From: Escherichia coli
GTDB taxonomy: Bacteria; Pseudomonadota; Gammaproteobacteria; Enterobacterales; Enterobacteriaceae
Assembly (NCBI RefSeq): GCF_044324875.1
Contig: NZ_CP172185.1
Length of the DNA: 64,000 nucleotides
Direction: 5' to 3' (one strand)
The notes below the pieces were generated by a model. That model was not told the DNA's origin. It worked only from the letters and a program-made list of their open reading frames with translations, and made no database searches. Both the position numbers and the translations under genes were made by a program. Below are positions 10,288 to 10,500 of this stretch, piece after piece (position 1 is the stretch's first letter; every line of letters begins with the position of its first letter).

Positions 10288-10295
10288 AAAAAAAA

Positions 10296-10324
10296 GTCCT
10301 GGGGTTAAGTAAGGAACTCCAGGA
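10296..10324 (-). terminator. Leader hairpin plus U8 tract immediately 5' of capsid start codon (attenuator-like)
   Basis: Minus-strand RNA: GUCCUGG..CCAGGAC stem, ~13-nt loop, then UUUUUUUU then AUG; SD (AGGA) lies in 3' arm of stem. Confidence 0.5.
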
Positions 10325-10378
10325 CGCGGCAAAAACTCAACCGTTTTTCATAAGGAAATCAGCAATCGCACCGATCGT

Positions 10379-10436
10379 TTTCCCGCCTGGTAATGAATAT
10401 TGGCGAGCACATTAACAGGCGGGAAAGTGGCCCCAG
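10379..10436. other. Large inverted repeat in capsid-operon leader (11-bp stem TTTCCCGCCTG/CAGGCGGGAAA)
   Basis: Perfect 11-bp inverted repeat separated by ~36 nt; approximate coordinates. Confidence 0.45.
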
Positions 10437-10500
10437 CGTCCTGGCACCACGGGCGAGAATAATCATGATTCAGTTCGAGTAAAATATGCCGATCCGCTCA

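What the first reader, a model, noticed from the sequence alone, without database searches (positions are those of the whole stretch)
10288..10440. Terminator-like hairpin with a U8 tract ending exactly at the capsid AUG, with the ribosome-binding site buried in the stem
On the minus strand the leader ends ...GUCCUGG(loop)CCAGGAC UUUUUUUU AUG (capsid). This is the geometry of an intrinsic terminator, yet it sits immediately 5' of the first structural gene and its 3' arm contains the only SD-like AGGA. A larger perfect 11-bp inverted repeat (TTTCCCGCCTG/CAGGCGGGAAA) lies ~90 nt further upstream in the same leader. Together this looks like an attenuator or antitermination-controlled switch: transcription and/or translation of the whole packaging module would stay off unless a factor or alternative fold relieves the hairpin.
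Basis: partly seen in the sequence, partly recalled or inferred. Interest (0 to 1): 0.6.

Follow-up and report, generated by a model that had tools for sequence, protein, structure and literature searches.

The report
Terminator-like hairpin masking capsid gene start
A real, evolutionarily maintained RNA hairpin followed by eight U's sits directly before the capsid gene of an E. coli phage-satellite island, at the end of a ~160-nt structured leader made from its own promoter; it most likely damps capsid-operon expression, but nothing supports a dedicated antitermination switch.

Summary
On the minus strand, GUCCUGG(16-nt loop)CCAGGAC (10325-10296, about -13 to -14 kcal/mol) is followed by U8 (10295-10288) and the capsid AUG (10287-10285). 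The only SD-like AGGA lies in the 3' arm. This geometry is about 75-fold rarer than chance in the window.

The window is a capsid-forming PICI (EcCIEDL933 type). Comparison of about 170 related islands shows a conserved sigma70-like promoter (-35 at 10483-10478, -10 at 10461-10456). It should start transcription at a covariation-supported 5' hairpin (H1, 10450-10427). Three phased TTGTTC repeats and an invariant TTTGTAAAT lie upstream. So the "leader" is about 163 nt, not 270.

The hairpin plus U7-8 is kept, with pairing-preserving substitutions, in the window-type lineage and one diverged relative. All other lineages have a different hairpin over the SD, no U-tract and no leader terminator.

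Best reading: an ancestral RBS-masking hairpin that in this lineage also has intrinsic-terminator form. It acts as a passive damper or insulator of the packaging operon.

I found no support for an alternative fold, a leader peptide or an antiterminator protein. The island's AlpA is unrelated to the Pseudomonas antiterminator AlpA. This is a new member of known kinds of element and is of moderate interest.

The parts
10296..10325 (-). H4: terminal leader hairpin GUCCUGG-(16 nt)-CCAGGAC. The 3' arm contains the SD-like AGGA (10300-10297).
   Evidence: dG -12.7 to -14.1 kcal/mol; pair probability at least 0.99. It is conserved with pairing-preserving changes in about 46 type-A loci and in L072.
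10288..10295 (-). U8 tract between the hairpin and the AUG. It is U7 in about three quarters of relatives.
   Evidence: The terminator-type score is +21 (formula recalled from memory).
9130..10287 (-). Major capsid gene (HK97 type), the first gene of the packaging operon. AUG at 10287-10285.
10427..10450 (-). H1: hairpin GUGGUGCCAG-GACG-CUGGGGCCAC, predicted to be the 5' end of the mRNA.
   Evidence: 98.5% of cells paired and 5 of 9 pairs with compensatory changes. Variants are listed. It always lies 7 nt after the -10 hexamer.
10379..10426 (-). It is not followed by U's on either strand.
   Evidence: The pairing columns are specific to type A.
10357..10376 (-). H3: small hairpin GAUCGGU...GCUGAUU.
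   Evidence: Folds. Not tested by covariation.
10456..10483 (-). Inferred sigma70-type promoter P_cap: -35 TTTACT (10483-10478), 16-nt spacer, -10 TATTCT (10461-10456). Predicted start near 10450.
   Evidence: The hexamers are positionally conserved with variable spacers in all leader types. The scan tool calls it in L003 (TTTACA-16-TATGTT). This is an inference; no transcript data exist.
10503..10528 (-). Three TTGTTC-N4 direct repeats in 10-bp phase, at about -53 to -78. Candidate activator sites.
   Evidence: Phased triple repeats at the same place differ in sequence between other island groups.
10532..10540 (-). TTTGTAAAT: invariant motif at a fixed 88-90 nt upstream of H1.
10603..11076 (+). 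157-aa accessory gene on the opposite strand, inserted at the hotspot just upstream of the conserved leader block.
   Evidence: same gene at the same spot in type-A and type-B islands. No family match.
11080..11105 (.). Bidirectional intrinsic terminator ending the early operon and the accessory gene.
9099..9120 (-). Hairpin immediately after the capsid stop codon, with a weak U tail.
17316..17360 (+). Second array of five TTGTTC-like repeats in inverted orientation, between int and alpA.

Best explanation
The hairpin plus U-tract is a functional negative cis-element at the 3' end of a roughly 163-nt structured 5' leader of the cf-PICI packaging-operon mRNA.

The leader is made from its own activator-dependent sigma70 promoter (P_cap), which has three phased repeats upstream. 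A hairpin covering the weak SD just before the capsid AUG is the ancestral feature of these islands. In the window's lineage this hairpin was rebuilt as GUCCUGG/CCAGGAC followed by U7-8. It therefore masks the ribosome-binding site and also has the form of an intrinsic terminator.

Its most likely effect is passive. It terminates part of the transcripts and lowers translation initiation. That keeps capsid and packaging expression low from leaky P_cap activity or read-through from the upstream accessory-gene hotspot. Strong activation of P_cap after island induction (the AlpA cascade) simply outruns it.

Shown: the structure, its selection, the promoter conservation, and the lineage distribution. 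Inferred: the transcription start, actual termination, translational repression, and the identity of the activator.
For: - Geometry and stability.
- Rarity: 3 sites observed against 0.04 expected, and the other two are real gene-end terminators.
- Selection on pairing. The L015 group has C>U changes that turn G-C into G.U and A.C into A-U, giving 11 continuous pairs. L053 gains an A-U pair. L072 (69% capsid identity) keeps the outer stem and U8 with a different loop and different inner pairs.
- Intactness: the hairpin is intact in all but 2 of about 46 type-A loci. The leader is present in 443 of 5426 complete E. coli genomes.
- Own promoter. The -35 / 16-nt spacer / -10 / 7 nt / H1 arrangement is conserved with variable spacers in about 110 unique leaders. 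In the window, an upstream terminator and an opposite-strand gene rule out simple read-through from the early operon.
- Ancestral SD-covering hairpin. GGUUUC-N-CGU...ACG-GAAACC lies 3-6 nt before the AUG in about 90 type-B loci, with variable loops.
- No need for a helper factor: alpA overexpression alone gives capsids.
Against: - There are no transcript-end or expression data, so termination and translational repression are predictions.
- The 16-nt loop is long for an efficient terminator.
- Type-B islands manage without any leader terminator, so the U-tract could be only an SD-AUG spacer.
- The capsid protein is needed in the largest amount, so a hairpin of -13 to -14 kcal/mol over the SD is paradoxical unless something opens it.
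- The type-B hairpin shows sequence conservation but no covariation, and its fold z-scores are weak. The 'ancestral RBS hairpin' is therefore suggestive rather than proven.
Confidence: 0.5

Rival explanations
1. Regulated antitermination or attenuation switch. The hairpin-U8 terminates nearly all leader transcripts. A specific island or helper factor, or an alternative RNA fold, relieves it on induction.
For: - The terminator geometry abuts the first ORF, as at Pseudomonas alpB (tB) and lambda PR'-tR' (lambda from my own knowledge).
- H1 contains CCAGGACG, the exact complement of the 5' arm CGUCCUGG (8 bp).
- A PerC-family 'transcriptional activator' gene lies just upstream in nearly all type-A islands.
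Against: - The H1::H4 pairing has no covariation support: 103 of 500 shuffles do as well.
- H1 itself is very stable and forms first.
- The island AlpA is unrelated to the Q-like Pseudomonas AlpA.
- The mini-ORF lacks an SD and is not conserved.
- PerC also occurs in type-B islands that lack the terminator, and many type-B islands lack PerC.
- There is no excess of internal terminators in the operon that would call for processive antitermination.
Confidence: 0.15
2. Purely post-transcriptional element. The hairpin controls translation initiation and/or mRNA stability. The U-tract is only the A/U-rich SD-AUG spacer or a landing pad for ribosomal protein S1, and termination is negligible.
For: - The feature shared by all lineages is a hairpin over the SD, not a U-tract.
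- SD-AUG spacing is the same in both types (8-9 nt).
- The U-tract and AUG are predicted to be accessible while the SD is not.
- The long loop should slow hairpin folding.
Against: A stable GC-rich stem immediately followed by 7-8 U's is expected to terminate E. coli RNA polymerase to some degree. It scores like the window's bona fide terminators. The pure U run is kept in every type-A locus and in L072.
Confidence: 0.25
3. The terminated leader of about 160 nt is itself a product: a stable small RNA with a 5' hairpin, a U-rich stretch and a terminator with a U7-8 tail, acting in trans on the helper phage or the host.
For: The architecture resembles Hfq- or ProQ-type sRNAs. Some type-B islands encode a ProQ/FinO-family protein just upstream of the leader.
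Against: No Rfam match and no annotated RNA in RefSeq records. Type-B leaders have no terminator to release such an RNA. No target is known.
Confidence: 0.06
4. Chance or neutral sequence feature without function.
For: Most type-A copies are 97-100% identical, so much of the conservation reflects recent common descent.
Against: The geometry is 75-fold rarer than chance. The few substitutions that occur preserve or extend pairing. L072 keeps the stem and U8 while its loop and neighbouring leader diverged.
Confidence: 0.04

Closest known systems
Phage lambda late leader: PR' - 6S RNA - tR' with Q antitermination (my own knowledge; mentioned in PMC7969949)
   Same: A short leader RNA from a dedicated promoter ends at an intrinsic terminator placed before the late or structural genes.
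   Different: There is no Q homolog and no Q-binding element. The terminator abuts the AUG and contains the SD. It is absent from sister lineages. The promoter appears activator-dependent rather than constitutive.
Pseudomonas aeruginosa alpB leader terminator tB, bypassed by AlpA (PMC7969949, PMC9371919)
   Same: A predicted intrinsic terminator lies immediately upstream of the first ORF of an operon that is switched on by a small regulator called AlpA.
   Different: The name is a coincidence. Pseudomonas AlpA is at least 142 aa with a 21Q-like fold. The island AlpA is 62 aa and of the Xis/Vis type, and it matches only PDB 8c3t. There is no GGGACG-N5-GGTA element between the -35 and -10.
Classical leader attenuators (trp, pyrBI; my own knowledge)
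   Same: A leader hairpin followed by U7-8 lies shortly before the first gene.
   Different: No conserved leader peptide and no supported antiterminator alternative fold.
RBS-sequestering hairpins and translational operators (for example Mu mom/Com, the MS2 replicase operator, RNA thermometers; my own knowledge)
   Same: The SD lies in the 3' arm of a hairpin next to the start codon. Such a hairpin is present in all lineages of these islands.
   Different: No effector is known. The stem is more stable than typical thermometers. The type-A version carries a terminator-style U-tract in addition.
Satellite phage P4 late promoters (Psid/PLL) activated by Delta/Ogr (my own knowledge; P4 record NC_001609)
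   Same: A satellite's late or morphogenesis operon has its own activator-dependent promoter in an intergenic control region.
   Different: Here there are three phased direct repeats plus TTTGTAAAT, not a TGT-N12-ACA dyad. The P4-type TGTTCACC iterons turned out to be origin elements 3' of rep, not part of this leader.

Membership tests
Intrinsic (Rho-independent) terminator | Stable G+C-rich stem-loop | tested here: met
   7-bp stem with 5 G-C pairs plus 3 inner pairs; dG -12.7 to -14.1 kcal/mol; pair probability at least 0.99 in the nascent RNA. The 16-nt loop is longer than typical.
Intrinsic (Rho-independent) terminator | Run of U directly after the stem | tested here: met
   U8 in the window, U7 or U8 in relatives. 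The d-type score of +21 compares with +15 for the window's own bidirectional terminator (formula recalled from memory).
Intrinsic (Rho-independent) terminator | RNA 3' ends are produced at the U-tract | not testable with these tools
   No transcriptome data available. No RNA feature is annotated here.
Transcription attenuator / antitermination switch | Mutually exclusive alternative (antiterminator) structure | tested here: inconclusive
   8-nt complementarity exists between H1 and the H4 5' arm, but covariation is no better than shuffles (103 of 500).
Transcription attenuator / antitermination switch | A sensing device (leader peptide, ligand pocket or RNA-binding protein) | tested here: not met
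   The mini-ORF AUG-AAA-AAC-GGU-UGA has no SD and is absent in L072. No Rfam family matches. No candidate protein was identified.
Transcription attenuator / antitermination switch | Terminator conserved wherever the regulated operon is conserved | tested here: not met
   About 90 type-B loci have no U-tract or terminator in the leader.
Q-type / Pseudomonas AlpA-type processive antitermination | Q-like antiterminator protein encoded nearby | tested here: not met
   The island AlpA (62 aa) matches only 8c3t, an 'AlpA family phage regulatory protein', and no Pseudomonas AlpA or Q chain at E up to 1. Pseudomonas AlpA has a 21Q-like fold.
Q-type / Pseudomonas AlpA-type processive antitermination | Binding element between -35 and -10, plus further terminators within the operon | tested here: not met
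   The spacer between the conserved hexamers is variable. Terminator-like sites in the operon are not enriched: 10 found against 8.8 expected.
RBS-sequestering hairpin (translational control element) | SD and/or start codon base-paired in a stable local hairpin | tested here: met
   AGGA is unpaired with probability below 0.08. The AUG itself is about 83% unpaired.
RBS-sequestering hairpin (translational control element) | Hairpin maintained in relatives | tested here: met
   Type A shows pairing-preserving changes. Type B has an invariant stem with variable loops in about 90 loci, though without covariation.
RBS-sequestering hairpin (translational control element) | Measured effect on translation, or a known effector | not testable with these tools
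   Requires reporter fusions.
cf-PICI (capsid-forming phage-inducible chromosomal island), as genomic context | int + alpA + rep/ori followed by capsid, protease, portal, connectors, HNH, TerS, TerL, with no tail or lysis genes | tested here: met
   The organisation matches that described for EcCIEDL933. The island is inserted in tqsA, as in O157.

The most novel reading that the evidence does not exclude
The conserved structured leader (H1 at the 5' end through H4) could be a new cis-regulatory RNA of phage satellites. It would gate the whole capsid and packaging operon at both transcription (hairpin-U8) and translation (masked SD), and it would be opened by a still unknown island or helper factor. 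PerC-family or phrog_1957 proteins, a ProQ/FinO-like protein, or the capsid protein itself are candidates. Alternatively, the terminated 160-nt leader could be a trans-acting sRNA directed at the helper phage.
Probability: 0.12. Interest if true: 0.7.

Novelty: new member of a known kind. Interest (0 to 1): 0.4.

Why it matters
cf-PICIs make their own capsids and borrow only phage tails, and they spread across species. How their packaging operon is switched on has not been described in the papers I could read.

This analysis gives a concrete, testable map of that control region:
- a conserved promoter with a fixed upstream motif and phased repeat sites;
- a 5'-terminal covarying hairpin;
- a hairpin over the ribosome-binding site, which in the EDL933/O157-type lineage is also a terminator.

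If the hairpin really limits capsid expression, it is a simple handle for tuning particle production in engineered PICI delivery or diagnostic systems. It would also explain how the operon is insulated from the accessory-gene hotspot just upstream.

Tried and rejected
1. The TTGTTC repeats as a P4-type replication origin. Haemophilus and Pasteurella loci have TGTTCACC / TCTTCACC arrays upstream of the capsid gene, identical to P4 'ori type 1 repeats'. But in the E. coli islands the true iterons lie immediately 3' of rep and are specific to the Rep type: AGGTGGGGA-like (AGTGGGGA), TAACCCGCA, or TGTTCACC for the P4-alpha-like Rep. The TTGTTC block, in contrast, is shared by all Rep types. Rejected.

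2. The island AlpA as a homolog of the Pseudomonas antiterminator AlpA. This is a name coincidence. Rejected.

3. An H1::H4 antiterminator pairing. There is no covariation support.

4. The upstream in-frame TTG (10332) as the true capsid start. The U7/U8 polymorphism breaks the frame in most relatives, and RefSeq uses the ATG. Rejected.

5. A leader peptide (AUG AAA AAC GGU UGA, 10351-10337). It has no SD and is absent in L072. Rejected.

6. PerC as the factor specific for the terminator-bearing leader. The correlation is imperfect. Undecided, but not supported.

7. Rfam search of the region: nothing.

8. The phage collection contains no similar leader.

9. A genome-contig scan gave only 7 loci.

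10. A search for the Sakai/EDL933 record, in order to link to published transcriptomes, gave no useful result. One literature query failed on syntax.

11. H2 as a terminator. No U-tract follows it on either strand.

I do not rely on them. I use only the window's own terminator as the comparator.

Full report
**Context**

The window is E. coli chromosome carrying a capsid-forming phage-inducible chromosomal island (cf-PICI, EcCIEDL933 type) on the minus strand. It runs from int (17408-18637) to terL (3940-5601) and is inserted in tqsA. After int the gene order is:
- alpA;
- small genes and rep (12873-14279);
- ssb and a PerC-family gene (11406-11687);
- an 82-aa gene (11112-11360);
- a bidirectional terminator (11080-11105);
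- a 157-aa gene on the opposite strand (10603-11076);
- the region in question;
- capsid (9130-10287), protease, portal, connectors, HNH, terS and terL.

This matches the organisation described for EcCIEDL933 (bioRxiv 10.1101/2022.09.08.507074). A later paper notes a variable region just before the packaging operon that is expected to carry immunity genes. It also uses alpA overexpression alone to produce EcCIEDL933 capsids (10.1101/2025.02.11.637232).

**The observation**

The minus strand reads GCCGC-GUCCUGG-AGUUCCUUACUUAACC-CCAGGAC-UUUUUUUU-AUG.

| Element | Coordinates |
|---|---|
| Hairpin H4 | 10325-10296 |
| U8 | 10295-10288 |
| AUG | 10287-10285 |

- Energy: -12.7 kcal/mol for the hairpin alone, -14.1 with flanks. 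The local z-score is -3.07.
- In the predicted nascent RNA the seven outer pairs have probability of at least 0.99 and the U's are free.
- AGGA in the 3' arm is the only SD-like element. It is essentially always paired, while the AUG is about 83% unpaired.
- The 11-bp inverted repeat (10426-10416 with 10389-10379) is also real. It has no U-run after it on either strand.
- A perfect stem of at least 7 bp followed directly by at least 7 T occurs three times in the 64 kb, against 0.04 expected. The other two sites are ordinary terminators just after stop codons.
- A d'Aubenton-Carafa-type score, with the formula recalled from memory, is +21 for this site and +15 for the window's own bidirectional terminator.

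**What the leader is**

The 273 bases upstream of the AUG occur in 443 of 5426 complete E. coli genomes, and only next to this capsid gene. They do not occur in phages or in Rfam.

Other E. coli islands with diverged capsid alleles share only a 49-bp block at the 5' edge. I collected about 170 related loci from genomes and viral contigs and aligned the unique leaders. The following arrangement is constant:

1. TTTGTAAAT at a fixed 88-90 nt upstream of hairpin H1.
2. Three direct repeats in 10-bp phase (TTGTTC-N4 in E. coli; other words in other island groups).
3. A -35-like TTTAC(T/A/C).
4. A 16-nt spacer of variable sequence.
5. A -10-like TAT(N)(N)T.
6. Seven nucleotides.
7. H1.

The scan tool independently calls this promoter in a type-B island (TTTACA-16-TATGTT). 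In the window the -35 is 10483-10478 and the -10 is 10461-10456. The predicted start is about 10450, the first G of H1.

In the window, the early operon ends at a strong terminator and a gene on the opposite strand intervenes. The capsid operon must therefore have its own promoter here.

H1 (10450-10427, GUGGUGCCAG-GACG-CUGGGGCCAC) is strongly supported as an RNA structure. It has 98.5% of cells paired, and 5 of 9 pairs show compensatory changes:
- CCAG/CUGG, CUCA/UGAG and CUCC/GGAG in the inner stem;
- GUGGC/GCCAC, AUGGC/GCCAU and GUGAC/GUCAC in the outer stem.

A hairpin at the very 5' end is the classic arrangement that protects an mRNA against 5'-end-dependent decay. That is my own knowledge and is not tested here.

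The transcribed leader is therefore about 163 nt (H1, H2, H3, a small hairpin, H4, U8).

**How the hairpin behaves in evolution**

*Type A.* These are the loci whose capsid is 97-99% identical to the window (about 46 loci). All have GUCCUGG...CCAGGAC followed by U7 (about three quarters) or U8. The few substitutions are informative:
- The L015/L034/L043/L048 group has two C>U changes. One converts G-C to G.U and the other converts an A.C mismatch to A-U, giving 11 continuous pairs.
- L053 gains the same A-U pair.
- L019 changes only the loop.
- L016 (one inserted base) and L038 (a G>U change that also destroys the SD) are damaged.
- L072, whose capsid is only 69% identical, keeps GUCCUGG/UCAGGAC and U8. 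Its loop and inner pairs are entirely different, and the neighbouring leader has diverged.

G.U-compatible change points to selection at the RNA level.

*Type B.* All other lineages (about 90 loci, plus Xenorhabdus-like loci) lack the U-tract. At the same place, 3-6 nt before the AUG, they carry a different hairpin, (U)GGUUUC-N-CGU...ACG-GAAACC(A). Its 3' arm holds the weak SD-like GGAA or GAGAA. The loops vary and the stem sequence is invariant. X. khoisanae has yet another stem (CUGCAUG/CAUGCAG). Type-B leaders contain no terminator-like site at all.

The segment CGUCCUG is homologous in both types. It pairs in a different register in each.

The parsimonious history is an ancestral hairpin over the ribosome-binding site. 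In the window's lineage it was rebuilt and acquired terminator form.

**Mechanism**

I commit to the following, at about 0.5 confidence. H4 + U7-8 is a passive negative element. It masks the SD and terminates part of the leader transcripts. This keeps the packaging operon quiet against leaky P_cap activity or read-through from the accessory hotspot. Strong promoter activation after induction overcomes it.

Three points fit this view:
- Induction does not need a helper-encoded factor at this step, because alpA overexpression alone gives capsids.
- The operon contains no excess of internal terminators: 10 found against 8.8 expected.
- A hairpin sits right after the capsid gene (9120-9099), so the capsid cistron is bracketed by hairpins.

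I looked for what a switch would need.

1. *An alternative fold.* H1 contains CCAGGACG, the exact complement of the H4 5' arm CGUCCUGG (8 bp in type A, 7 bp plus a bulge in type B). On the alignment, however, 103 of 500 shuffles do as well, and the four core pairs never vary. This is unproven.

2. *A leader peptide.* AUG-AAA-AAC-GGU-UGA (10351-10337) has no SD and is missing in L072. Rejected.

3. *An antiterminator protein.* Pseudomonas AlpA is a Q-like antiterminator that bypasses a terminator placed immediately before alpB (PMC7969949). But it is a protein of at least 142 aa with a 21Q-like fold (PMC9371919). The island AlpA is 62 aa and of the Xis/Vis type. It matches only PDB 8c3t and not the Pseudomonas chains. 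E. coli PICI AlpA is described as an activator of its own promoter (PMC6092414 and PMC11773190).

4. *PerC.* It matches phage 'transcriptional activator' families and lies just upstream in nearly all type-A islands. It also occurs in some type-B islands, and many type-B islands lack it.

I therefore rate the switch model at about 0.15.

**The upstream repeats**

The repeats resemble the P4 alpha iteron TGTTCACC (annotated in NC_001609). Haemophilus and Pasteurella islands carry exact TGTTCACC / TCTTCACC arrays upstream of the capsid gene.

In the E. coli islands, however, each Rep type has its own iterons immediately 3' of rep, as described for Gram-negative PICIs (PMC6092414):

| Island | Rep type | Iteron 3' of rep |
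|---|---|---|
| window | RepA-like | AGTGGGGA |
| O157 | DUF927 | TAACCCGCA |
| L003 / L004 | P4-alpha-like | TGTTCACC |

The TTGTTC block is identical across all three Rep types. It recurs as five units between int and alpA (17316-17360), in inverted orientation. The repeats are therefore not the origin. They are best read as sites for a regulator common to the islands, with AlpA as the obvious candidate. This is inference only.

**Novelty and interest**

None of the cf-PICI or PICI papers I could read describes a promoter, leader or terminator for the packaging operon. The elements themselves are known kinds: an activator-dependent promoter, a 5' stabiliser hairpin, an RBS-masking hairpin and a leader terminator. 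I file the finding as a new member of known kinds, with interest about 0.4.

The most novel reading not excluded is that the leader is a dedicated satellite riboregulator or a trans-acting sRNA. I put its probability at about 0.12.

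Noticed in passing
window 10503-10528 (-) and 17316-17360 (+): Two arrays of TTGTTC-N4 direct repeats in 10-bp phase share about 26 identical bases and are inverted relative to each other. Three units lie at about -53 to -78 of the inferred capsid promoter. Five units lie between int and alpA. They are identical in islands with three different Rep proteins. They are candidate sites for a shared regulator (AlpA?).
   Followed up: partly
window 10532-10540 (-); same motif in L003-L173: TTTGTAAAT is invariant and lies at a fixed 88-90 nt upstream of hairpin H1 in E. 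coli, Xenorhabdus-like and Gilliamella islands. This holds even where the repeats differ or are absent (L078, L083). Its function is unknown.
   Followed up: partly
window 12690-12880 (-); L002 7655-8040; L003 2200-2500: Origin iterons immediately 3' of rep are specific to each Rep type: AGTGGGGA (window), TAACCCGCA (O157), TGTTCACC (L003/L004). The L003/L004 Rep is 49-51% identical to P4 alpha residues 313-776 and uses the exact P4 type-1 iteron. All four Rep proteins share only an N-terminal domain of about 125-145 aa.
   Followed up: partly
window 10603-11076 (+): A 157-aa gene on the opposite strand, with a strong SD, is inserted between the early operon terminator and the conserved leader block. 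The same gene sits at the same spot in both type-A and type-B islands (L060, L061, L075). It has no match in NCBIfam, PHROGs or PADLOC. It is a possible accessory or immunity gene in the known variable hotspot.
   Followed up: partly
window 10427-10450 and 10319-10326 (-): H1 contains CCAGGACG, the exact complement of CGUCCUGG (the base of H4). The loop G(A/G)CG and the downstream CGUC are invariant in all leader types. There is no covariation support, but a loop-to-stem contact is not excluded.
   Followed up: yes
window 9099-9120 (-): A 9-bp hairpin, GAAGGGGCUUAAAAGCCCCUUU, lies 10 nt after the capsid stop codon and has a weak U tail. The capsid cistron is thus bracketed by hairpins. It may be a partial terminator or a 3' stabiliser that raises the ratio of capsid to other products.
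   Followed up: no
window 17190-17222 (-): A hairpin GGCAUAAAA-CGAGA-UUUUAUGCC followed by UUUGCAU lies in the alpA upstream region, downstream of the five-repeat array. A sigma70-like site TTGCCA-17-CACAAT (17123-17095) lies closer to alpA. The alpA leader may also contain a terminator-like element.
   Followed up: no
window 10337-10351 (-): A four-codon mini-ORF, AUG AAA AAC GGU UGA, ends 11 nt before H4. It has no SD and is absent from L072, so it is probably not functional.
   Followed up: yes
window 10332 (-): With U8 an upstream TTG is in frame with the capsid gene, giving a 15-aa extension. With U7, as in most relatives, it is out of frame. The T7/T8 length polymorphism shows slippage in the homopolymer.
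   Followed up: yes
L003 3201-3731; also L058, L063-L070, L076, L092-L093: Many type-B islands encode a ProQ/FinO-family (RNA-binding) protein two genes upstream of the leader. Type-A islands do not.
   Followed up: no
L124, L132, L136, L141 and similar loci, about 30-50 nt upstream of H1: In one island group a G+C-rich hairpin with a U-run (CCCCCGUCUUUUGCGGGGG-UUUUCUUUAU) lies between the phased repeats and the -10, overlapping the -35. It looks like a terminator inside the promoter region.
   Followed up: no
window 11112-11360 (-); L010, L011, L003: An 82-aa protein (phrog_1957, unknown function) is the last early gene before the leader in E. coli, Gilliamella and Xenorhabdus islands (35-96% identity). 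It is absent from the O157/EDL933 type.
   Followed up: partly
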